Shown here: one piece after another, positions 23,676 through 31,577 of the stretch
How the letters are laid out: every line of letters begins with the position of its first letter
How positions within the stretch are numbered: position 1 is the stretch's first letter
Assembly: GCA_036339735.1 (NCBI GenBank)
Contig: JAYZAL010000019.1
Span: 32,001 to 96,000, forward strand
Length of the DNA stretch: 64,000 nt
Reading direction: 5' to 3'
From: Candidatus Poribacteria bacterium
GTDB taxonomy: Bacteria; Poribacteria; WGA-4E; UBA9662
Program-made: the position numbers and the translations under genes
Notes under the pieces: generated by a model
Database searches by the model: none
Told to the model about the DNA's origin: nothing
Seen by the model: only the letters and a program-made list of their open reading frames with translations

Positions 23676-24677
23676 TTACAAATCCGATATTAGAATTTCA
23701 CGTCCTTCTTTAGCACTCAGAACAGCAGCAAAAACCATAGACATAGACTTTAGATTATCTGCAGCATTACATTCAGGTTCTCGGTCCTCTTTAATCGCGC
23801 GAACAAATTCGTTAAGAACGGGATTTGGACCATCAATATCATCTAGATCGACTTGTTTGCGTATTGTTGGGTTTTGTCGATGATTAAGTGTCTGATAAAG
23901 ATCAAATCCTTCCCAAGTCAAAGTACCTTTTGGTCCTTCATATCGCCATTCACCGTTATGTCCAGCAGGAACATGTCCCATTGTACACCCAATACCTCGA
24001 TGGGTTGCAAATACACCATTTTCGAATTTAAAAAGAATTATCTGACAAGCATCGCCCTGATGCCAACCCCAAGGCAAATTCCAAGTGATGGCTTGGGCAC
24101 TAATTGGATCAACTCCTAATGTATATCTCATCATATCAAAATGATGAATTCCCATATCTGTCAGGAACATGTATGGTTCTGTCACATAATGGCTTCCTGG
24201 GCTATCAGCCCAATTTACATATAGTGAGACATCTAATTGTGCGATTTCACCAATTTTATGATCTTCTATTAATCTTCGGGTTGTACGAGGTAGAGCGTTG
24301 AACCGGTAGTTTTGAGTAATCATGTGTTTGACATTAGCACTTTCGCCTGCAGATACAATACGTTTAGCTGCATCAAAATCATCACTCAAAGGTTTTTCAC
24401 CAAGTAAGTGCAAACCTAGATCAAAAGATTTCATTGCAATAGCTTCATGTACAGATGGCGGAGTAACATCAACAACGAAATCAGCCCCAAAACTCTGGGG
24501 TACATCGTTCAGATCTGCGAAAATTTTATTTTCTGGTATTCCCCTTTGATCAATAGCTCTTTGACGATTTTTCTCCGATGCTTCCACGTAGGCAACAAGT
24601 TCCACTTCCTTATGATCTTCACAAGCCGATAACCAGTGGTAGCCTCGACCGCCAAGTCCGACAAGGATTGCTTTCAT
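23676..24677 (-). CDS. Gfo/Idh/MocA family oxidoreductase
   Basis: VGLGGRG, EKP, QNYRF, DMGIHHFD. Confidence 0.9.
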   Translation of the reverse strand: MKAILVGLGGRGYHWLSACEDHKEVELVAYVEASEKNRQRAIDQRGIPENKIFADLNDVPQSFGADFVVDVTPPSVHEAIAMKSFDLGLHLLGEKPLSDDFDAAKRIVSAGESANVKHMITQNYRFNALPRTTRRLIEDHKIGEIAQLDVSLYVNWADSPGSHYVTEPYMFLTDMGIHHFDMMRYTLGVDPISAQAITWNLPWGWHQGDACQIILFKFENGVFATHRGIGCTMGHVPAGHNGEWRYEGPKGTLTWEGFDLYQTLNHRQNPTIRKQVDLDDIDGPNPVLNEFVRAIKEDREPECNAADNLKSMSMVFAAVLSAKEGREILISDL

Positions 24678-24863
24678 AGTAACTCCTAAGTCCTAAGATC
24701 CATTTAAACAGTCAGCGATTATAACATCGATTCAAGCAACCAACAACAGCGAATTTAAGTAGAAAAGCTGGCAAATGTTTAAAAAAATCGTTATATTTCA
24801 TTGGGTCTATTTTAGAGAGTCAGCCATAGACATTTGTCTGCCTAAACACAAGAAGAAAAAATT

Positions 24864-27158
24864 TTGATTAGTGTAAAAAATAAAAGATTATTTATCATAT
24901 TTCTACTGTCATCAGTGATTGCCCTTGAAACCTATTCTAGTGAAATAAGGGGGAGAGTTCTTCGCCAAGGTTCACAAGAACTGGTTAGTGGAGTAATTGT
25001 GAAAGTTTTGGGAACGGATCAAAAATTTATAACCGATGATCAGGGAGAATTTGAAATAACTGAACTACCAACTGGAACTTATCAATTAACCTTGACAAGA
25101 TTCCGTTTTCGTTCAAAAACAATTGAAGTCTTGGTACTTGACGATCAACCCCTCGATTTAGACGTTCGGCTAGAAAGAATCGATTTCATCTTCGACGAAA
25201 TAGTTGTGAGGGGGCAGCTTTTAACCGAATCGGTCAGTCGTCAAAGTGTGACTGGATTAGAAATAAAGCGTATACCGGGTGCTGGTGGAGATGCGTTGAG
25301 AGCTATCCAAGCTTTACCAGGTATCAAGGCTGGTGCAGATTTCGGAGGTCAACTTTATGTCCGTGGTGGTGGACCAGAAGATAATCAGATCTATTTTGAT
25401 CGTTATCCCTTGGCTAATGCTTATCATTTCGGAGGTTTAGTTTCAACTGTAAGTTCTGAAATTCTACAACGGATTGATATCTATGCTGGTGGATTTGGAG
25501 CTGAATATGGTCAGGATTCGCAGGCAATAATAGATATTTATTCGCGACCTGGTAATCGTAAGAACTTCAGTGGCAAAGTGAATTTAAATATTCTTTATGC
25601 TGAAGGACTGATAGAAGGTCCACTAGGGGAATCAGGGTCTTGGTATTTTGCAGGTCGTCGTAGTTATTTTGACCTTTTTCCGTTAGAAAGAGTAATAACG
25701 GTTATAACAGCATTCCCTAGATTCTGGGATTATCAAACACGATTTAACTACGAAATAAACGAGAAATACCAAATAGATTTTACAGCATTTGCAGCTGATG
25801 ATTTTGCAGAATTGGCTTTTACAGAAGAACAGCAAGATGAAGAAGAACTAAGAGGTGCCTTATACATAAAGAATTCGGCACATGTTCAAGGCTTCCACCT
25901 CCGTGCTTTGCTTACCCCACGCCTAACCTACGATTTTAATCTTTCTCACAACAAACAATTAGTAAATTTCAAGATTGGTCAAGGATTCTTCCTTCGTATA
26001 CAACCTGACGTGTATGATGTTAGACATGATGTAGTATATGAAATTTCGCCCAATGTACGTTTAGAAACAGGTTTGTTAAATTCAATTGGTGACGTTGTCG
26101 TTCAGCTGTTTTTTCCTAATCCTCCGGAAGAGGGAGATCCGAATTACGATTTTTTAGAAGCCGAAAAGAATAGAGTTGATACACAACAGGAAGATTATCA
26201 AGTGGAAGGCTACGTTCAAACACGTTTTACTCTTGGGGAATACCTATCCTTTGCATTAGGAACTCGAGTCGATTATTCTGCAGATTTAACAGCTCAGCCA
26301 ACGCCTCAACCACGTTTAAGTTTTAATTTAACAATGCCAGGATTACCACAATTAAGATTAGCTTACGGCCGTTATATGCAAACACCGCAGCCACCTCAGT
26401 TTTTTGAACCTGGGGGGAATCCAGAACTTGAGGAAAGTCTCTCAGACCATTTTATCCTAGAAATCGAAAGAGCTTTTGAAAATGGTACAGTGCTCAAGGC
26501 TGCTGGTTATCGTAAGCAGTTGGATAAACAGATTGAACCTGATCCTGAGGAAAATCCAGTAAAAAATAAGAATTACCTCAATATTGGAGAAGGTTACGCA
26601 CAAGGTGTCGAATTCTTACTCCAATATCGTCAAGGAGATCGATTTTTCGGTTGGTTGAGTTATGCAAGGTCTGTTTCCAAAAGAAGGGACGATCCAGATC
26701 AAGATTACCGATTTTATTCCTATGACCAAACACATATTGCAACTATCATCGCCAGCTACAAATTTACCAAGACATTTGAGATTGGAGGAAGATGGCAGTA
26801 TGCCACGGGAAACCCCTACACACCATTAACCTGTGAAGAAAATATTAGCAATCCATGTTACGAAAATATTATCAGTCCGAGAGATGGAAAAACTAGAAAA
26901 GTACCTCTCTATGGATCAATAAATTCTTTCCGTGTAGAACCATTTCATCGTCTCGATGTGAGAATCAGCAAAAATTTTGTTTTTGATACTTGGCAAATTG
27001 GAACCTACCTAGAATTAATAAATGCCTATAATCGAAAAAATGTCCTTCAGTTTAGCTATGACGACGAGTATGAACGCGACAAGGATGGAGAAGTGAAGAA
27101 AGACATAGTAGGACAGTTACCATTGCTACCTTATTTCGGAGTAATCATTGAGTTTTAA
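24864..27158 (+). CDS. TonB-dependent receptor with N-terminal carboxypeptidase-regulatory-like domain
   Basis: TDDQGEF, plug LPGI...VRGGGPEDN, GGFGAEYG, RLDVR, NAYNRKN, C-terminal Phe. Confidence 0.9.
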   Translation: MISVKNKRLFIIFLLSSVIALETYSSEIRGRVLRQGSQELVSGVIVKVLGTDQKFITDDQGEFEITELPTGTYQLTLTRFRFRSKTIEVLVLDDQPLDLDVRLERIDFIFDEIVVRGQLLTESVSRQSVTGLEIKRIPGAGGDALRAIQALPGIKAGADFGGQLYVRGGGPEDNQIYFDRYPLANAYHFGGLVSTVSSEILQRIDIYAGGFGAEYGQDSQAIIDIYSRPGNRKNFSGKVNLNILYAEGLIEGPLGESGSWYFAGRRSYFDLFPLERVITVITAFPRFWDYQTRFNYEINEKYQIDFTAFAADDFAELAFTEEQQDEEELRGALYIKNSAHVQGFHLRALLTPRLTYDFNLSHNKQLVNFKIGQGFFLRIQPDVYDVRHDVVYEISPNVRLETGLLNSIGDVVVQLFFPNPPEEGDPNYDFLEAEKNRVDTQQEDYQVEGYVQTRFTLGEYLSFALGTRVDYSADLTAQPTPQPRLSFNLTMPGLPQLRLAYGRYMQTPQPPQFFEPGGNPELEESLSDHFILEIERAFENGTVLKAAGYRKQLDKQIEPDPEENPVKNKNYLNIGEGYAQGVEFLLQYRQGDRFFGWLSYARSVSKRRDDPDQDYRFYSYDQTHIATIIASYKFTKTFEIGGRWQYATGNPYTPLTCEENISNPCYENIISPRDGKTRKVPLYGSINSFRVEPFHRLDVRISKNFVFDTWQIGTYLELINAYNRKNVLQFSYDDEYERDKDGEVKKDIVGQLPLLPYFGVIIEF

Positions 27159-27562
27159 TGGCTAAATTAACGTCGAGCAGACTAGTTTCCCGAATAACCT
27201 TTCTTTTTCTTTCATTTCAAATTTTTTGTTTGCTCTCCTGTTCTGTGTTTGGTGGAAATTCATGTGGGGGGTTAGAAGATTTGGGTCAGTCTGCCCCAAA
27301 TGATTGCTGCCCTTATCATACATCCAATTCCACAGAAAAGTGTTGTTGGAAAACTGTAGTTATTACAGATCAAAAAAAGCCTCTTAAAATCTCTACGTCT
27401 GGTAACCAAAAAGGGTCTACATTTTTAGCATCTAGTCAAAGTGTGTTGGAGAGACAAAAGCTTGAGGGTCAAATTTGTTTTGTTTTTGTTTTGATTCCTC
27501 ATATTTCTTCAAAAGAATCACTATCCTTACCAAATCGATCGCCTCCTATCTCCATAATTTGA
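27158..27562 (+). CDS. Cys-rich secreted/lipoprotein-like small protein ending in RSPP (DUF2946/CutF-like candidate arrest leader)
   Basis: TAATG overlap with the receptor; signal/lipobox-like LLSC; CCPYH...CC; NRSPP four residues before the stop. Confidence 0.6.
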   Translation: MAKLTSSRLVSRITFLFLSFQIFCLLSCSVFGGNSCGGLEDLGQSAPNDCCPYHTSNSTEKCCWKTVVITDQKKPLKISTSGNQKGSTFLASSQSVLERQKLEGQICFVFVLIPHISSKESLSLPNRSPPISII

Positions 27563-27625
27563 GTTTTGTTGATGAGTAAAATGAAAATTATGAAAAAACG
27601 ACCTAAGCTATTATGGAGATAATAA

Positions 27626-28681
27626 ATGAAAGATAGAAAAAAGTGGATCTTGTTGGCAATATTGTTTTTTATTTTAAATTCGATACCATATGTCATTGCT
27701 CAAGATGCTTGAGGTGCCTGAAGTAACCCCATAATCCCTGAAATGGGGCCGAGCCGTGAGCTCGATATAGAAACGAAGAAAAAATTTCGATTCACTTTTA
27801 ACGTCACACGTTCTTTCAATGCAGAAGGTGGACATAGTGAAACAGGCGGATTGACAACCGATGGTCGACTAATCGAAATTGGAAACCATTGGCATCACGT
27901 GTCTATGTCAATGAGCCGTTTTAATTTAGGACTGCATTACCAATTAAATCCTCGAACTAAGCTAGCACTAGTCTTACCATATAGTATTAAAAATCAGTCA
28001 GCTGAAATTGAATGGGAAGCCTCAAACCCAAGTGTGAGTGACCAGGATGCAGCTATCCGGAATGGTTATATCCATCATAGAGATGAAACATATCGTGGGT
28101 TTGAAGATCTGAATTTAACGACTAACTACCACTGGAATGGGTTTACATCTATAAAAAACGACAGAATTACTCTGTCTGCTGGGTTGTCTATACCAACGGG
28201 TAAAATTGAACCTGATCCATATAAGCTCGGCGACGTAGGAAAAAAACATTTACATCTGCAGTTTGGTACAGGAACACTAACTCCAAGTTTCCAAGTTATC
28301 TACATATTGCCAGTAAACGATTTGCTGTCGGTACAATCTCGGTTATCATTTCGACGTCCCTTCTACGAAAACAAGTATAGTTTTCTGTCTCCTCCAGAAA
28401 CAAGTACCTATTTTGGTATAGCATTAAAAGTCTCGAATATCCTGAGATTACATGGGTCTTGGATGGTATTTAGGCAAGGATTTGGGTATTGGGATGGAAA
28501 TAGAGATCGAAATACTGGTATGCAAATGCATGCTTTACAATTGGGAACAAACACAACAATTGGTCGAAAAACCCCTTTAAATATTAGCGTAATTGTACCT
28601 ATCCATCAACAAATGCTTAGTACGGGGGATACATTCGAGCATGGTATTCTATTGTCGTCTAGTGTTTCTCATGTCTTTTAA
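27626..28681 (+). CDS. His-rich outer-membrane beta-barrel transporter-like protein with N-terminal UxxU (two in-frame TGA): candidate selenoprotein
   Basis: GGAG RBS 27615-27618, ATG 27626, MKDRKKWILLAILFFILNSIPYVIAQDA-TGA-G-A-TGA-SNPIIPE-M, in frame with track ORF 27743; GLSIPTG, LQFGTGT, C-terminal HVF. Confidence 0.7.
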
Positions 28682-28692
28682 AACTAACTAAA

Positions 28693-28722
28693 TTGACAGT
28701 CAGAGGTCTGAATTGTTAGAAT
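28693..28722 (+). promoter_or_regulatory. Sigma70-type promoter
   Basis: TTGACA-18 nt-TAGAAT with TG extension. Confidence 0.55.
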
Positions 28723-28784
28723 GGGATAGTTTATGGGAAGCCATTTGGCAGTTTAGGTCAGGCAATGAAAATTAAGGAGTTTCT

Positions 28785-29792
28785 ATGGCAGATGTTATTC
28801 GTGGTGGAGTGATAGGATATGGTGGTGCTTTTAATATGGGGCGTAGCCATGCTGGGAGTATGCAAAACACTGAAGGTATAGAATGCGTGGCAATTTGCGA
28901 CATTGACCCAGAACGTACTAAAGCCGCTAAAGAAGATTTTCCACAAGTTCGTACTTACAACGACAGTGATGATTTTTTTGCTGACGAAAGCATTGATTTA
29001 GTAACTATTGTTCTGCCTCACAATTTACATGCTCCTGTGGCTATTCAAGCACTTAATGCTGGTAAGCATGCAATAACTGAAAAACCGATGTGCATTACAG
29101 TATCAGAAGCGACTTCGATGATTGAGTCAGCAAAATCTAATGGAAAAATGTTATCGGTTTATCACAATCGGCGTTGGGATCAAGATTTTTGGACATTAAA
29201 GGGTATAATAGAGAGTGGTGTTATTGGTAGACCGCACACGATTGAAATGCGTGCTAGTGGTTATGGTCGGCCGAACCCAGATTGGTGGAGAAGTGTAAAG
29301 TCTGTTTCGGGTGGTATCATATATGACTGGGGGGCACACTATATCGACTGGCTACTAAACGTAGTTGATAATAAAATGATCAGTGTAACCGGATTTTATA
29401 TTGATAATGAAGTCTGGACAGATATTAGTAATGAAGATCATGCACGTGCGTTCATTCGATTTGACGGAGACTTAGTAGCTGACGTGGAATTTTCCCAGAT
29501 CGCTAAAATTGGAGGAGATCGATGGAAGATCTTAGGTACCCATGGGGCAATTCAATCCGCAGATGGCCATTTCAAAGTGTGGTCAGAAATCGAAAATCAG
29601 CAAAGTGAACAAGAAATCTCATATCAAGGTCGCCCAGGCCATAGTTTCTATCAAAATATTGTAGCTCACCTCAGAGAGAATGAACCATTAATAGTTACAC
29701 CAGAGTCTGCTCGACGGGTAATTGCTGTAATGGATTTGGCTGAGAGGTCAGCGAAGTCGCATCAAGCTGAAACCGTACCTTACGAATTTTAA
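28785..29792 (+). CDS. Gfo/Idh/MocA family oxidoreductase
   Basis: IGYGG, EKP, HNRRWD, DWGAH. Confidence 0.9.
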   Translation: MADVIRGGVIGYGGAFNMGRSHAGSMQNTEGIECVAICDIDPERTKAAKEDFPQVRTYNDSDDFFADESIDLVTIVLPHNLHAPVAIQALNAGKHAITEKPMCITVSEATSMIESAKSNGKMLSVYHNRRWDQDFWTLKGIIESGVIGRPHTIEMRASGYGRPNPDWWRSVKSVSGGIIYDWGAHYIDWLLNVVDNKMISVTGFYIDNEVWTDISNEDHARAFIRFDGDLVADVEFSQIAKIGGDRWKILGTHGAIQSADGHFKVWSEIENQQSEQEISYQGRPGHSFYQNIVAHLRENEPLIVTPESARRVIAVMDLAERSAKSHQAETVPYEF

Positions 29793-29804
29793 AGTTTTAA
29801 AAAA

Positions 29805-29854
29805 TCGACATTGGGGTTCTGCCTGATATAATCTAAGCAGAACCCCAATGTCGA
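29805..29854. terminator. Perfect 18-bp inverted repeat between convergent genes
   Basis: TCGACATTGGGGTTCTGC-14 nt-GCAGAACCCCAATGTCGA. Confidence 0.75.
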
Positions 29855-29888
29855 CTCTGCCCCTCTATCAAAAAGATTTCCAACCTTT

Positions 29889-31577
29889 TCAAATGTTCCC
29901 TGTTCCTCGGTGTTGACTAAGCCGGTTAACAGCGTAAGTTCCAATTGAAACTATAATAATAGCAATTACCCCTAAGCTCGCGCTTGGTCCTCTACCTGTA
30001 GTTTCTTGCATATACAAATATATGCCGTAAGAAATAGGGGCCATTTCATTTCTTGGTACGAGCATTAAAGTCGAACTTAATTCGACTGAAGAGCTAATGA
30101 AGGCCATGATTCCACCTGCTACAATACCTGGTAACATTAGGGGTAAAACGATTTTAGTAAAGGTAGATAGAGTATTTGCACCTAGATTTTTTGAGGCTTC
30201 TTCTAGAGATATGTGAATTTGTTGCAACGTAGCATAGCAAGATCGAACTGTGTATGGTAATCTGCGAACCGCGTAGACAATTACTAGGATCAACCAAGTC
30301 TCAGTCAGTGGTTTACCAATGACAGGCAAATCTATCGTGTGGAATATTCTTAGGTAGCCAATTGCCAAAACTACACCTGGGACTGCTAAAGGTAATGTGG
30401 CAATGAAATCCAAAATTGTTCGGCCTAGCATCTTTCCTCTAAGCAGTATGAAAGAAATTATGGCTCCTAGAAATATATCAATCAGAGCCGCCAATGCAGC
30501 GTATACAATAGTATTAAGTATCATTTTTGGGGCATCGGCAAAAACTCTGGTGAAATTGGTAGTGGTATAGATTTTGGGCAGAACTGTAAAGTTCCAAGAT
30601 TTAGCAATAGACATTAGAAAAATACCTATGTGTGGCAGTAAGCAAAAAGTTAACAAAATTATACAGAAACCACTAATCGTCCAACCTTTCCAACCAAAAA
30701 TTTGCAGTCTAGAAATGGAACTACCTGACTTTTGTTGTACATATTCCGATTGCTTAAGATAGTGCAGTGCAAGAACCAATGAGAAGAGAGATAACACAAC
30801 CAGAATTACAGAAATAACATATCCCATTGTACTATTGCCATTAATAGCGGTAATTTGTTGATAAGCTAGAGGTGCTAACAAATTATGATAACCAAGCATC
30901 AGGGGAGTACCGAGATCGTCTATACTTTTGATAAAAACAATTAGTGCACCAGCCATATACCCTGGTTGCATCAGTGGAAATGTGATTTGGCGAAACAGTT
31001 TCCATCCGGAAGCTCCTAGGTTTCTTCCAGCTTCTTCCAGGGAGAGGTCTGCGTTTTCTAAGGCTGATACAGAATTAAGTAAAATAAAGGGAAAGTAGTG
31101 TAATGTTTGAACTAAAACAACACCGGTTAATCCGTCCATGAAAGGAATGGTCGTACCAAAAAACATCCGGATAATTTGATTGATCATACCACTTCGCCCC
31201 AAAATTGTTTGTAGAGCAATAGCGCTAACAAAAGCTGGCATGACCAATGGTAAAACGCCCAGTGTTTGAACGATCAATCGACCTTTGAAGTTATAACGGG
31301 TGGTAAATAAAGCCAAAGGTAAGCTAATAATACTGCTAAAGAAAACTACGATAACACCTACCCATAAACTTCGCCACAAAGCCTCGTTTAGCGAAGGCTG
31401 CTTGAAAAAATTGACAAAGTGGGTTAGTGTTAGGCGACCATTTTCAGTAAATGCGACGTAAATCACTTGCAAAATTGGGAGTAGGATGAAAAAAGATAAG
31501 AGTACCAATAAGCAAATGAAAAGAAGGAATTGGCCAGGGGTTGATGAACCCCGTATTCGTCTGAAAAGTTCTTTCAT
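29889..31577 (-). CDS. Fe3+/FbpB-type ABC transporter permease (two BPD modules)
   Basis: Two EAA loops (LEEAGRNLGA, LEEASKNLGA), DDLGTP, LAVPGVV. Confidence 0.88.
   Translation of the reverse strand: MKELFRRIRGSSTPGQFLLFICLLVLLSFFILLPILQVIYVAFTENGRLTLTHFVNFFKQPSLNEALWRSLWVGVIVVFFSSIISLPLALFTTRYNFKGRLIVQTLGVLPLVMPAFVSAIALQTILGRSGMINQIIRMFFGTTIPFMDGLTGVVLVQTLHYFPFILLNSVSALENADLSLEEAGRNLGASGWKLFRQITFPLMQPGYMAGALIVFIKSIDDLGTPLMLGYHNLLAPLAYQQITAINGNSTMGYVISVILVVLSLFSLVLALHYLKQSEYVQQKSGSSISRLQIFGWKGWTISGFCIILLTFCLLPHIGIFLMSIAKSWNFTVLPKIYTTTNFTRVFADAPKMILNTIVYAALAALIDIFLGAIISFILLRGKMLGRTILDFIATLPLAVPGVVLAIGYLRIFHTIDLPVIGKPLTETWLILVIVYAVRRLPYTVRSCYATLQQIHISLEEASKNLGANTLSTFTKIVLPLMLPGIVAGGIMAFISSSVELSSTLMLVPRNEMAPISYGIYLYMQETTGRGPSASLGVIAIIIVSIGTYAVNRLSQHRGTGNI

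What the first reader, a model, noticed from the sequence alone, without database searches (positions are those of the whole stretch)
27626..28681. Outer-membrane barrel with a hidden UxxU double-selenocysteine motif right after its signal peptide
Seen: the track ORF (27743) has no signal peptide. 117 nt upstream and in frame there is a GGAG RBS and ATG (27626) encoding a clean signal peptide, MKDRKKWILLAILFFILNSIPYVIA-QDA. It is followed by TGA(27710)-GGT-GCC-TGA(27719) and then the barrel. The two TGAs sit in CxxC spacing at the mature N-terminus. The barrel is His-rich (GGH, HWHH, IHH, HLH) and ends in Phe. Known: Sec is encoded by UGA and usually aligns to Cys in homologues; UxxU motifs are rare. 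Inference: an exported selenoprotein barrel with a diselenide/metal-binding N-terminus. Two independent nonsense mutations in this spacing, with the rest of the gene intact, are unlikely. Standard annotation would truncate this gene.
Basis: partly seen in the sequence, partly recalled or inferred. Interest (0 to 1): 0.9.

Follow-up and report, generated by a model that had tools for sequence, protein, structure and literature searches.

The report
Double-selenocysteine outer-membrane barrel of Poribacteria
The two in-frame TGA codons are almost certainly read as selenocysteine, so this is an exported outer-membrane barrel protein with two selenium atoms at its tip, and public databases have been cutting its gene short.

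Summary

**Selenocysteine reading**
- Among the window plus 80 Poribacteria loci, the second TGA is kept in 81 of 81. The first position is TGA in 61 and Cys in 20.
- More distant full-length homologues carry CxxC-xNP at the same place.
- The genome has selA, selB and a Sec-containing selD. tRNA-Sec is missing from this 92%-complete MAG but present in 4 of 4 complete relatives.
- Covarying hairpins follow the TGAs. The window's own hairpins miss the published bSECIS thresholds.

**Fold and family**
- The AlphaFold2 model is a 12-stranded barrel like FapF and the COG4313 channel.
- No Pfam or NCBIfam model matches.
- All 16 database homologues are N-terminally truncated.

**Function (inferred)**
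It is probably a channel or relay for thiol-loving metals. The Cys clade sits in an ArsR, MerT-HMA, CsoR-like, HMA, HMA-thioredoxin operon, and other relatives are fused to HMA or thioredoxin.

This looks like an undescribed selenoprotein family, found in 140 of 176 genomes of the phylum.

The parts
27615..27619 (+). Shine-Dalgarno-like GGAGA, 6 nt before the true start codon
   Evidence: Read directly from the sequence.
27626..28681 (+). Full coding sequence of the selenoprotein: 351 codons plus a TAA stop, with Sec at codons 29 and 32
   Evidence: Translation with TGA=U. The full-length frame is conserved in 80 of 80 related loci.
27626..27700 (+). Signal peptide, residues 1-25. It has a basic n-region (MKDRKK), a hydrophobic core, and ends VIA before QDA.
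   Evidence: Read from the sequence. An in-frame ATG-started hydrophobic leader was found in 80 of 81 genes; L031 had no ATG within range. No signal-peptide predictor was available.
27710..27712 (+). First UGA, Sec29
   Evidence: This position is TGA in 61 of 81 genes and Cys (TGY) in 20 of 81. More distant homologues have Cys here.
27719..27721 (+). Second UGA, Sec32
   Evidence: TGA in 81 of 81 genes and in 18 of 18 Sec-type metagenome loci. The CPAC, CAAC and CAGC homologues have Cys here.
27727..27748 (+). Hairpin 1: CCCCAU / AUGGGG with a 10-nt loop, -8.2 kcal/mol. It starts 17 nt after the first base of UGA1. The 3' arm contains the ATG that standard annotation uses as the start.
   Evidence: Across the family this helix is 87-89% paired, with compensatory changes that include synonymous sites.
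27750..27764 (+). Hairpin 2: CGAGC / GCUCG with loop CGUGA, -6.7 kcal/mol, z -2.86. The loop begins 33 nt after UGA2.
   Evidence: The equivalent hairpin in L018 and L019 meets all four published bSECIS constraints for UGA2. The family hairpin 2 is 94.6% paired, and 4 of its pairs show double changes.
27785..28678 (+). Beta-barrel domain, residues 54-351, about 12 strands, with a conserved His cluster and a C-terminal Phe
   Evidence: AlphaFold2 pLDDT 78, pTM 0.75. Foldseek matches FapF 5o67 and COG4313 4rl8 at E about 1e-12 with TM 0.70-0.73 by target length. The C-terminal residue is Phe in 77 of 114 genes.
27743..28681 (+). The truncated ORF that table 11 yields. This is the form held in the databases.
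   Evidence: All 16 database homologues start at or after this point.
27158..27562 (+). Upstream small Cys-rich protein (134 aa) with an N-terminal hydrophobic segment and CC pairs. It may be a partner; this is context only.
   Evidence: An ORF of the same kind sits at the same place in L018 and L019.
24864..27158 (+). TonB-dependent receptor (CarboxypepD_reg plus Plug domains). It is context only and is shared with just the two closest loci.

Best explanation
The gene 27626..28681 encodes one exported protein of 351 residues.

**What is made**
- A Sec-type signal peptide is removed, probably after VIA. That leaves a flexible N-terminal tail Q-D-A-U-G-A-U-S-N-P in front of a 12-stranded outer-membrane beta-barrel.
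- Both UGA codons (27710 and 27719) are decoded as selenocysteine by SelB with Sec-tRNA(Sec). Decoding is directed by mRNA hairpins that begin 17 nt after the first base of UGA1 and 8 nt after the first base of UGA2.

**What is shown**
- The frame, the conservation of the UGAs, and Sec/Cys exchange with homologues.
- The Sec-synthesis genes in the genome.
- Covarying hairpins downstream of the UGAs.
- The barrel fold.

**What is inferred**
- The two selenols, or one selenol and one thiol in the CxxU paralogues, act with a conserved histidine cluster as a binding and hand-over site for soft, thiol-loving metal ions such as Hg(II) or Cu(I), or as a redox-switched gate.
- A periplasmic thioredoxin-like partner keeps the site reduced.

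**My odds**
- Both UGAs are read as Sec: about 0.9.
- Outer-membrane barrel: about 0.85.
- Thiophilic-metal or redox relay function: about 0.4.

The confidence figure given for this explanation refers to the selenoprotein-barrel core, not to the function.
For: **1. Conservation of the UGAs**
- In the window plus 80 loci from different Poribacteria species genomes, the motif is UGAU in 61, CPAU in 16, CGAU in 2, CSAU in 1 and CAAU in 1. The second TGA is present in 81 of 81.
- A leader peptide with an ATG lies in frame upstream in 80 of 81.
- Protein identity to the window falls to 34-40% across these loci.

**2. TGA is not generally recoded**
- The window is densely coding under table 11.
- 21 of the 81 family genes end with TGA as their true stop.

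**3. Cys homologues**
- A profile search found 498 relatives at E <= 0.001. The full-length ones read CPAC-SNP, CAAC-GNP, CAGC-RNP and similar at the aligned place.
- 42 of 46 metagenome loci show the motif: 24 CxxC, 16 UxxU and 2 CxxU.
- On a FastTree tree of 126 rows, the states need at least 8 changes.

**4. Sec machinery**
- selD scores 359 bits against a cut-off of 125 and carries TGA at the catalytic position (SCAG-U-ASK). selA scores 579 bits. selB scores 362 bits.
- tRNA-Sec scores 75-80 bits in 4 of 4 complete Poribacteria chromosomes that carry the family, and ARAGORN calls it SeC(tca).

**5. RNA structure**
- Hairpin 2 is 94.6% paired, and 4 of its pairs change on both sides.
- Hairpin 1 is 87-89% paired in two registers, with covariation at synonymous sites: columns 24/52 show UA 40 and CG 21; columns 36/42 show GC 32 and AU 17.
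- Sliding the 3' partners by 1-3 columns drops pairing to 28-54%.
- In the 63 nt after the motif, Sec-type genes have a median z of -2.6, with 62 of 88 below -2. Cys-type genes have a median of -1.2, with 4 of 18 below -2.
- A hairpin meeting all four published bSECIS constraints (read in section 5 of PMC13188914) occurs in 39-42% of 72 UxxU genes and 65-70% of 20 CxxU genes. It occurs in 6% of 18 CxxC genes and 3-5% of shuffles.

**6. Fold**
-. The Atlas's nearest clusters carry PF13557.

**7. Function leads**
- In 20 metagenome loci (20 CPAC ORFs and 3 UPAU ORFs in the cluster), the gene directly upstream encodes an HMA-thioredoxin or thioredoxin protein.
- Locus L127 reads ArsR, MerT-HMA, methyltransferase, CsoR-like, HMA, HMA-Trx, barrel.
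- P0031 is a barrel fused to HMA. P0113, P0119 and P0134 are barrels fused to a His/Asp-rich stretch and a thioredoxin WCxxC domain.

**8. Independent samples**
- DNA contig of run X4 has 0 differences over 27400-27796.
- A contig of RNA library X17 spans 27538-27843, covering the ATG and both TGAs.
Against: - **No tRNA-Sec in this genome.** The Rfam best score is 45.2 against a cut-off of 47, and that hit is a tRNA-Ser. ARAGORN finds none. blastn with four Poribacteria tRNA-Sec genes gives only partial hits in the tRNA-Ser cluster. The MAG is 92% complete, so this is weak evidence.
- **The window's own hairpins fail the published bSECIS model.** Hairpin 1 has a 10-nt loop with no G in its first two positions. 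Hairpin 2 reaches -6.7 kcal/mol, not -7.5.
- **Weak single-sequence fold signal.** The 66-nt stretch folds with z of only -1.19.
- **Incomplete consensus structure.** RNAalifold recovered only hairpin 2.
- **No Rfam family matches**.
- **No peptide or selenium-labelling data exist.**
- **RNA-library contigs could be carried-over DNA**.
- **The N-terminal tail is unplaced.** Its pLDDT is below 50, so its position relative to the barrel is unknown.
- **The functional context is indirect.** It comes from clades 35-47% identical to the Poribacteria proteins. In Poribacteria no neighbour is shared by more than 19 of 80 loci (aldo/keto reductase upstream), and the window's TonB-receptor context is shared with only 2 of 80.
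- **Non-independence.** The Sec versus Cys hairpin contrast rests on few independent clades.
Confidence: 0.85

Rival explanations
1. The upstream frame is a dead remnant. The TGAs are nonsense mutations and the real protein starts at ATG 27743.
For: Table 11 gives this ORF, and every database entry has this form.
Against: - A barrel that starts at 27743 has no signal peptide.
- The TGAs, the leader and the SNP motif are kept in 81 genes whose proteins have diverged to about 35% identity, with no TAA, TAG or frameshift among them.
- Cys homologues are read straight through the same region.
- The truncated database entries are explained by gene callers stopping at TGA.
Confidence: 0.02
2. TGA is read here as a standard amino acid, Trp or Gly, through a changed genetic code or a suppressor tRNA, and not as Sec.
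For: Two database proteins, P0060 and P0062, show W at these positions.
Against: - The window and the family use TGA as a true stop: 21 of 81 family genes end in TGA, and the window is densely coding under table 11.
- Homologues carry Cys at these positions, not Trp or Gly.
- selA, selB and selD are present, and selD itself has TGA at its catalytic Cys position.
- L140 and L064, which match P0060 and P0062 through the N-terminal stretch compared by eye, have TGA at the positions where those entries show W.
Confidence: 0.02
3. It is a real selenoprotein barrel, but the UxxU is a redox catalytic or gating centre, not a metal-binding site. In this reading it is a diselenide/diselenol switch worked by a thioredoxin-like partner, which opens a plugged channel or reduces a substrate such as selenite, tellurite or a disulfide.
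For: - Thioredoxin is the most constant partner, either as the upstream neighbour or fused to the barrel.
- TehB/TPMT-like methyltransferases lie beside the barrel in L127.
- The structural relatives FapF and COG4313 are 12-stranded barrels. That their channels are occluded by N-terminal segments is recalled, not tested here.
- Most known Sec-for-Cys families are redox proteins (PMC13188914, abstract and passages).
Against: - HMA, MerT and CsoR-like neighbours, an HMA fusion and His/Asp-rich linkers point to metal handling.
- Seven conserved histidines fit a metal site.
- The two readings are not exclusive.
Confidence: 0.3
4. Only the second UGA is efficiently read as Sec. The first UGA mostly terminates translation and serves as a selenium-dependent throttle on expression.
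For: - The second position is invariant, while the first was replaced by Cys at least 4 times.
- Two UGAs 9 nt apart are demanding for a SelB system tied to one hairpin.
Against: - The first TGA is kept in 61 of 81 genes across deep clades. It also appears in the separate UPAU clades.
- It is replaced only by Cys, as expected for a functional residue.
- The register of hairpin 1 that sits closest to UGA1 is strong in UxxU genes (median -10.4 kcal/mol, n=61) and weak in CxxU genes (median -3.4, n=20).
Confidence: 0.1

Closest known systems
COG4313 / Pfam PF13557 (Phenol_MetA_deg) outer-membrane channels, e.g. Pseudomonas putida Pput2725 (PDB 4rl8), and the FapF amyloid transporter (PDB 5o65, 5o67)
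   Same: - They share the fold: a 12-stranded outer-membrane barrel. Foldseek gives E 1e-12 to 1e-11, TM 0.70-0.73 by target length and 0.55-0.59 by query length.
- The Atlas's nearest named clusters carry PF13557.
- 2 of 13 Cys homologues touch PF13557 at E 0.0013.
   Different: - The window protein has no Pfam match, and sequence identity to the structures is 10-13%.
- The [U/C]xx[U/C]-xNP tail and the conserved His cluster are specific to this family.
- No selenoprotein form of PF13557 appeared in the review passages I read.
HMA-type 'UxxU metal-binding (seleno)protein' (NCBIfam NF041115) and the MerT/CopZ fusion-like selenoprotein (NF045683)
   Same: - Two Sec residues occupy the CxxC spacing of a soft-metal site.
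- These families belong to heavy-metal handling systems. The 2026 review lists NF041115 with UxxU and 2 Sec, and NF045683 appears by its NCBIfam name in the hit list.
- The HMA domain fused to the relative P0031 hits these models.
   Different: - The window protein has no HMA domain.
- Its UxxU sits on an unstructured tail of a membrane barrel, not in a ferredoxin-like fold.
[quoted passage not shown]
   Same: It is the only outer-membrane barrel listed among prokaryotic selenoproteins in the passages I read from the 2022 and 2026 reviews.
   Different: - It is a different and much larger barrel family tied to extracellular electron transfer.
- It is listed with 1 Sec and with '-' in the table's Sec-motif column, though its family name says CXXCH-containing.
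- It does not match the window protein in NCBIfam.
Classical mer system (MerP, MerT, MerA)
   Same: - Cys pairs pass Hg(II) from protein to protein.
- The CPAC-clade barrel lies in one operon with MerT-HMA, HMA proteins and ArsR- and CsoR-type regulators.
   Different: - No outer-membrane component appears in the mer scheme of PMC8261052; 'outer membrane' occurs once there, in a figure legend.
- No MerA was seen within 4 kb in L127.
- The window has no mer genes nearby.

Membership tests
Bacterial selenoprotein (UGA read as Sec through SelB and a SECIS) | An in-frame UGA is conserved among orthologues, with coding sequence conserved on both sides | tested here: met
   The second UGA is present in 81 of 81 genes and the first in 61 of 81. 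The leader and the SNP motif are conserved. All 150 matches listed for the phylum carry 1-3 in-frame TGAs.
Bacterial selenoprotein (UGA read as Sec through SelB and a SECIS) | Homologues carry Cys at the aligned position | tested here: met
   The first position is Cys in 20 of 81 genes. Distant homologues have CxxC.
Bacterial selenoprotein (UGA read as Sec through SelB and a SECIS) | selA, selB and selD are present in the genome | tested here: met
   All three score over their curated cut-offs. selD has Sec at its catalytic position.
Bacterial selenoprotein (UGA read as Sec through SelB and a SECIS) | selC (tRNA-Sec) is present in the genome | tested here: not met
   It was not found in this 92%-complete MAG. 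It is present in 4 of 4 complete Poribacteria chromosomes that carry the family, so the absence is probably an assembly gap.
Bacterial selenoprotein (UGA read as Sec through SelB and a SECIS) | A bSECIS hairpin meeting the published constraints: loop 3-9 nt, stem at least 4 bp, G in the first two loop positions, 16-37 nt from the UGA, and at most -7.5 kcal/mol (PMC13188914 section 5) | tested here: inconclusive
   - The window gene has no hairpin passing all four constraints. Hairpin 2 fails only on energy at -6.7 kcal/mol. Hairpin 1 fails on its loop.
- Across the family, 39-42% of UxxU genes and 65-70% of CxxU genes pass. That compares with 6% of CxxC genes and 3-5% of shuffles.
- The review says that some bSECIS elements lie outside the model.
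Bacterial selenoprotein (UGA read as Sec through SelB and a SECIS) | Selenium is demonstrated in the protein | not testable with these tools
   This needs proteomics or 75Se labelling.
PF13557 / COG4313 outer-membrane channel | A Pfam model match over the gathering score | tested here: not met
   The window protein matches 0 families. 2 of 13 Cys homologues match at E 0.0013.
PF13557 / COG4313 outer-membrane channel | A 12-stranded barrel fold with a signal peptide and a C-terminal aromatic residue | tested here: met
   - DSSP gives 12 strands if 154-171 is counted as one.
- Foldseek matches 4rl8 and 5o67.
- The leader is read from the sequence.
- The C-terminal residue is Phe in 77 of 114 genes.
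HMA-type UxxU metal-binding selenoprotein (NF041115) | An HMA domain carrying the UxxU | tested here: not met
   The window protein has no HMA or NF041115 match.
mer-type heavy-metal operon component | Encoded beside MerT, MerP or HMA genes and metal-sensing regulators | tested here: not met
   - The window's neighbours are a TonB-dependent receptor, a small Cys-rich ORF and GFO oxidoreductases.
- The feature is met only in the CPAC clade and part of the UPAU clade.

The most novel reading that the evidence does not exclude
Two UGAs only 9 nt apart may be served by a register-switching SECIS.

- One G-rich 3' arm can pair with either of two C-rich 5' arms that lie 8 nt apart, at the Asn-Pro codons and the Ile-Pro codons.
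- As the ribosome advances from UGA1 to UGA2 and covers the first arm, the hairpin would re-form one step downstream. Each UGA would then see a hairpin at about the same distance.
- A second hairpin with a G-U-containing loop may hold a second SelB complex ready.

The product would be the first outer-membrane channel whose gate or selectivity site is a diselenol, and it is near-universal in four Poribacteria families.
Probability: 0.2. Interest if true: 0.85.

Novelty: new variant of a known kind. Interest (0 to 1): 0.72.

Why it matters
- **Annotation.** A protein present in 140 of 176 Poribacteria genomes, usually in one or two copies, is annotated everywhere as a leaderless 'hypothetical protein'. 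The true product is an exported selenoprotein.
- **Selenoprotein catalogue.** It adds an outer-membrane channel family to the selenoproteins. It also adds one of the few UxxU cases: the passages I read list three families with UxxU.
- **Decoding mechanism.** It offers a natural test of how SelB copes with two UGAs three codons apart.
- **Outer-membrane metal traffic.** The Cys relatives tie the family to mercury- or copper-type handling genes. That points to an outer-membrane step in thiophilic-metal traffic that the mer scheme I read does not include.
- **Ecology.** The organism is found in seawater metagenomes of many studies. The selenium demand of this protein may therefore bear on trace-element ecology.

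Tried and rejected
- **Rfam scan** of 27550-27900 at E <= 10 gave only two chance hits, a miRNA and a CRISPR repeat.
- **NCBIfam** on 22 family members gave nothing except one weak TIGR04565 hit at E 0.005.
- **PDB sequence search** with the family profile gave 0 hits at E <= 1.
- **RNAalifold** on the 81-row alignment gave only hairpin 2 and a 2-bp helix. Hairpin 1 had to be tested with structures I named, which favours them.
- **The TonB-dependent receptor as a conserved partner** is rejected. It is shared with only 2 of 80 loci, both close relatives in synteny.
- **No universal neighbour in Poribacteria.** The best cluster covers 19 of 80 loci.
- **The window's 134-aa ORF against the 146-aa upstream ORF of other clades** showed no similarity, E 23.
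- **Earlier notes of this scan** returned nothing.
- **Tree building.** The maximum-likelihood run with the default model did not finish in time, so the tree is FastTree, midpoint-rooted. Several long branches are flagged, so I draw no direction of Sec/Cys change from it.
- **Parts of the gene without RNA-library cover** are not evidence of anything.
Full report
**1. The observation**

The sequence is as described.
- GGAGA at 27615-27619 precedes ATG 27626.
- The first 25 codons give a typical leader, MKDRKKWILLAILFFILNSIPYVIA.
- After Q-D-A come TGA (27710-12), GGT, GCC and TGA (27719-21).
- The frame then runs open to TAA 28679-81, 351 codons in all, ending in Phe.
- Table 11 yields only the leaderless ORF 27743..28681.

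The window is densely coding under table 11, with 53 ORFs of 100 aa or more. The organism therefore does not read TGA as a sense codon in general.

**2. Is it a selenoprotein?**

*Database entries are all cut short.* A word-indexed search of 5.8 billion proteins gave 16 relatives. All are 288-313 aa and all begin at or after the position of Met40. That pattern is expected if gene callers stop at a conserved TGA.

*The TGAs are conserved in genome DNA.* Scanning one genome per prokaryote species found 264 related stretches. The 80 best were kept, and nearly all bear Candidatus Poribacteria titles. I walked upstream in frame in each.
- With the window included, the motif is UGAU in 61, CPAU in 16, CGAU in 2, CSAU in 1 and CAAU in 1.
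- The second TGA is present in 81 of 81.
- An ATG-started hydrophobic leader lies in frame in 80 of 81; L031 had no ATG in range.
- No gene has TAA, TAG or a frameshift at these positions.
- 21 of the 81 genes use TGA as their true stop.

*More distant relatives carry Cys.* A profile search of 1.84 billion cluster representatives gave 498 relatives at E <= 0.001. The full-length ones read CPAC-SNP, CAAC-GNP, CAGC-RNP or CSGC-TNP at the aligned place.

*A metagenome scan adds more states.* It gave 46 loci, of which 42 show the motif: 24 CxxC, 16 UxxU and 2 CxxU. The UxxU group includes new UPAU clades.

*The two 'Trp' entries look like artefacts.* P0060 (CSLW) and P0062 (WGAW) show W at these sites. 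L140 and L064 match them through the N-terminal stretch, compared by eye, and read CSLU and UGAU. The W's therefore look like products of a TGA=Trp gene call.

*The tree.* On a FastTree tree of 126 rows, the three states need at least 8 changes. CxxU arises at least 4 times inside the UxxU Poribacteria clade. The rooting is arbitrary and several long branches are flagged.

*Sec machinery.*
- The genome (4.32 Mb, 107 contigs, 92% complete) has selD at 359 bits, selA at 579 bits and selB at 362 bits. All are over their cut-offs.
- selD has TGA inside the motif SCAG-U-ASK. That this is the catalytic Cys position is recalled.
- tRNA-Sec was not found here.
- It is present at 75-80 bits, and called SeC(tca) by ARAGORN, in 4 of 4 complete Poribacteria chromosomes that carry the family.

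*Independent samples.*
- A DNA contig of run X4 covers 27400-27796 with no difference.
- A contig from RNA library X17 covers 27538-27843 with no difference. It therefore spans the ATG and both TGAs.
- Contigs from an RNA library do not prove transcription.

**3. RNA structure after the UGAs**

I aligned 84 nt from each of the 81 genes.

*Hairpin 2.* It is typically UGAAGUYA-GUU-URACUUCA. It is 94.6% paired, and 4 of its 8 pairs change on both sides.

*Hairpin 1.* It exists in two registers that share one 3' arm.
- The outer register uses the Asn-Pro codons as its 5' arm. The inner register uses the Ile-Pro codons, 8 nt downstream.
- Both registers are 87-90% paired.
- Both covary at synonymous sites: columns 24/52 show UA 40, CG 21 and UG 5; columns 36/42 show GC 32, AU 17 and GU or UG 8.
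- Sliding the partners by 1-3 columns lowers pairing to 28-54%.
- I chose these structures from the sequences themselves, which favours them.

*Single-register folds.*

| Gene type | n | Median dG, outer-only fold | Median dG, inner-only fold |
|---|---|---|---|
| UxxU | 61 | -10.4 kcal/mol | -6.8 kcal/mol |
| CxxU | 20 | -3.4 kcal/mol | -7.5 kcal/mol |

- The contrast rests mainly on one clade (CPAU, 16 genes) plus L024.
- L041, L044 and L022 still look like their UxxU sisters.
- Some clades form one long hairpin instead of two alternative registers.

*Sec-type against Cys-type genes.*
- In the 63 nt after the motif, Sec-type genes have a median z of -2.6, with 62 of 88 below -2.
- Cys-type genes have a median of -1.2, with 4 of 18 below -2.

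*Published bSECIS constraints.* I read these in section 5 of PMC13188914 and applied all four.

| Set | n | Share with a qualifying hairpin |
|---|---|---|
| UxxU genes | 72 | 39% for UGA1, 42% for UGA2 |
| CxxU genes | 20 | 65-70% |
| CxxC genes | 18 | 6% |
| Shuffles | - | 3-5% |

*The window's own gene does not qualify.*
- Hairpin 1 (27727-27748, -8.2 kcal/mol) has a 10-nt loop without an early G.
- Hairpin 2 (27750-27764, loop CGUGA, 33 nt after UGA2) reaches only -6.7 kcal/mol.
- In its sisters L018 and L019 the same hairpin 2 passes for UGA2. In L018, hairpin 1 passes for UGA1.

The support for a SECIS is therefore comparative. The window sequence alone does not show it.

**4. The protein**

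- AlphaFold2 with 22 relatives gave pLDDT 78 and pTM 0.75. Residues 18-49 are of low confidence, and long strands run from residue 54 to 350.
- Foldseek against the PDB puts FapF (5o67, 5o65) and the COG4313 channel (4rl8) first. E is 1e-12 to 1e-11, and TM is 0.70-0.73 by target and 0.55-0.59 by query.
- Pfam, NCBIfam and PDB sequence searches find nothing for the window protein.
- 2 of 13 Cys homologues touch PF13557 at E 0.0013. The Atlas's nearest named clusters carry PF13557.
- Invariant residues in 22 Sec-type relatives include Q26, U29, A31, U32, S33, N34, P35, H70, H88, H90, H150, H151, R152, E195, H208 and H210.
- The Cys homologues keep the two Cys, N-P, and the His residues at the matching columns.

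**5. Function**

*In Poribacteria the neighbourhood varies.*
- The best shared neighbour is an aldo/keto reductase, in 19 of 80 loci.
- An SBP_bac_5 ABC system follows the gene in 15 loci.
- The window's TonB-dependent receptor is shared only with L018 and L019.

*In the CPAC clade and three UPAU loci the context is consistent.* The gene directly upstream encodes an HMA-thioredoxin or thioredoxin protein. This cluster covers 20 loci.

*Locus L127 reads on one strand:* ArsR-type regulator, MerT-HMA, methyltransferase, a 74-aa ORF, CsoR-like repressor, HMA protein, HMA-thioredoxin, barrel.

*Domain fusions.* Other relatives are fused at the C-terminus to an HMA domain (P0031), or to a His/Asp-rich stretch plus a thioredoxin domain (P0113, P0119, P0134).

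*Precedent.* The 2026 review lists Sec forms of MerT, of an HMA-type UxxU protein and of metal ATPases. [quoted passage not shown]

*My inference.* The barrel is probably the outer-membrane member of a thiophilic-metal relay, with the [U/C]xx[U/C] tail as the first ligand. A redox-gate reading is a live rival. I put this inference at about 0.4.

**6. Distribution**

| Group | Genomes with a match at E <= 1e-10 |
|---|---|
| Whole phylum | 140 of 176 |
| Genomes at least 90% complete and at most 5% contaminated | 109 of 133 |
| Family f1 | 6 of 6 |
| Family f2 | 11 of 11 |
| Family f3 | 10 of 29 |
| Family f4 | 112 of 112 |
| Seven further families | 0 of 17 |

- Many f4 genomes hold two copies. 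Where both copies appear among the listed matches, one usually has 1 TGA and the other 2 TGAs.
- All 150 listed matches have 1-3 in-frame TGAs. 98 more matches were not listed.
- This genome has one copy.

**7. Novelty**

- 'Poribacteria' with 'selenocysteine' returned 3 papers (listing only). None is about this protein by title or abstract start.
- 'UxxU' with 'selenoprotein' returned 6 papers.
- 'selenoprotein', 'outer membrane', 'beta-barrel' and 'selenocysteine' together returned 11 papers.
- In the passages of the 2022 and 2026 reviews that I read, the UxxU families are a Prx-like oxidoreductase, the HMA-type metal-binding protein and an FmdB-family protein. The only outer-membrane barrel there is the MtrB/PioB family.
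- NCBIfam release 20, whose accessions the 2026 review's table gives for many of its families, does not match the window protein.
- I did not read the whole tables, and supplements were closed. The family could still sit in a survey's list as a hypothetical protein.

**8. Verdict**

This is a real double-Sec outer-membrane barrel of an apparently undescribed family, and it is wrongly truncated in public annotation. The metal function and the way two adjacent UGAs are decoded remain open.

Noticed in passing
window 27158-28681, compared with 23676-27158 and 28785-31577; L018 and L019: Between the window and L018, the flanking genes are 94-97% identical at the protein level. The barrel is only 77-78% identical, and the small upstream ORF only 35%. 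These two genes evolve much faster than their neighbours. That could reflect surface exposure or recombination.
   Followed up: partly
window 27158-27562; L018 3562-3942; L019 3565-3939: A small Cys-rich protein of 124-134 aa sits between the TonB-dependent receptor and the barrel in all three loci. It has an N-terminal hydrophobic segment ending near L-x-C-S-x-F-G, CC or CxxC pairs, and a conserved C-terminal (N/S)R(S/P)PP(I/L)S. It has no Pfam match.
   Followed up: partly
G000:C70:27515-28441 (L001): The genome's selD is itself a selenoprotein, with one in-frame TGA in SCAG-U-ASK.
   Followed up: yes
P0060 and P0062, compared with L140 and L064: Public protein catalogues hold fragments of this family with Trp at the TGA sites. 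These look like gene calls made with a TGA=Trp code.
   Followed up: partly
L127 625-5032: In an unnamed metagenome contig, a compact one-strand operon reads ArsR, MerT-HMA, methyltransferase, a 74-aa ORF, CsoR-like, HMA, HMA-thioredoxin, CPAC barrel. A ZIP transporter and a TehB/TPMT-like methyltransferase lie on the other strand just downstream. No MerA was seen within the 9 kb held.
   Followed up: partly
G123:C5:4400-5476: One family member in the phylum survey shows 3 in-frame TGAs rather than 1 or 2.
   Followed up: no
window 27400-28800: 20 of the 24 public runs listed hold part or all of the stretch. They come from 15 studies, labelled seawater or marine metagenome where a label is given, and six are metatranscriptome libraries. 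That fits a free-living marine Poribacteria lineage. I laid only four runs.
   Followed up: partly
alignment A2, columns 53-69 compared with 57-75: In the window clade (window, L018-L020), hairpin 2 sits about 6 nt closer to the UGAs than in the other clades. It is built from different codons (P-S-R-E-L-D rather than S-E-V-S-L-T-S), although the proteins have the same length there. This suggests that a hairpin is what selection keeps, more than the peptide.
   Followed up: partly
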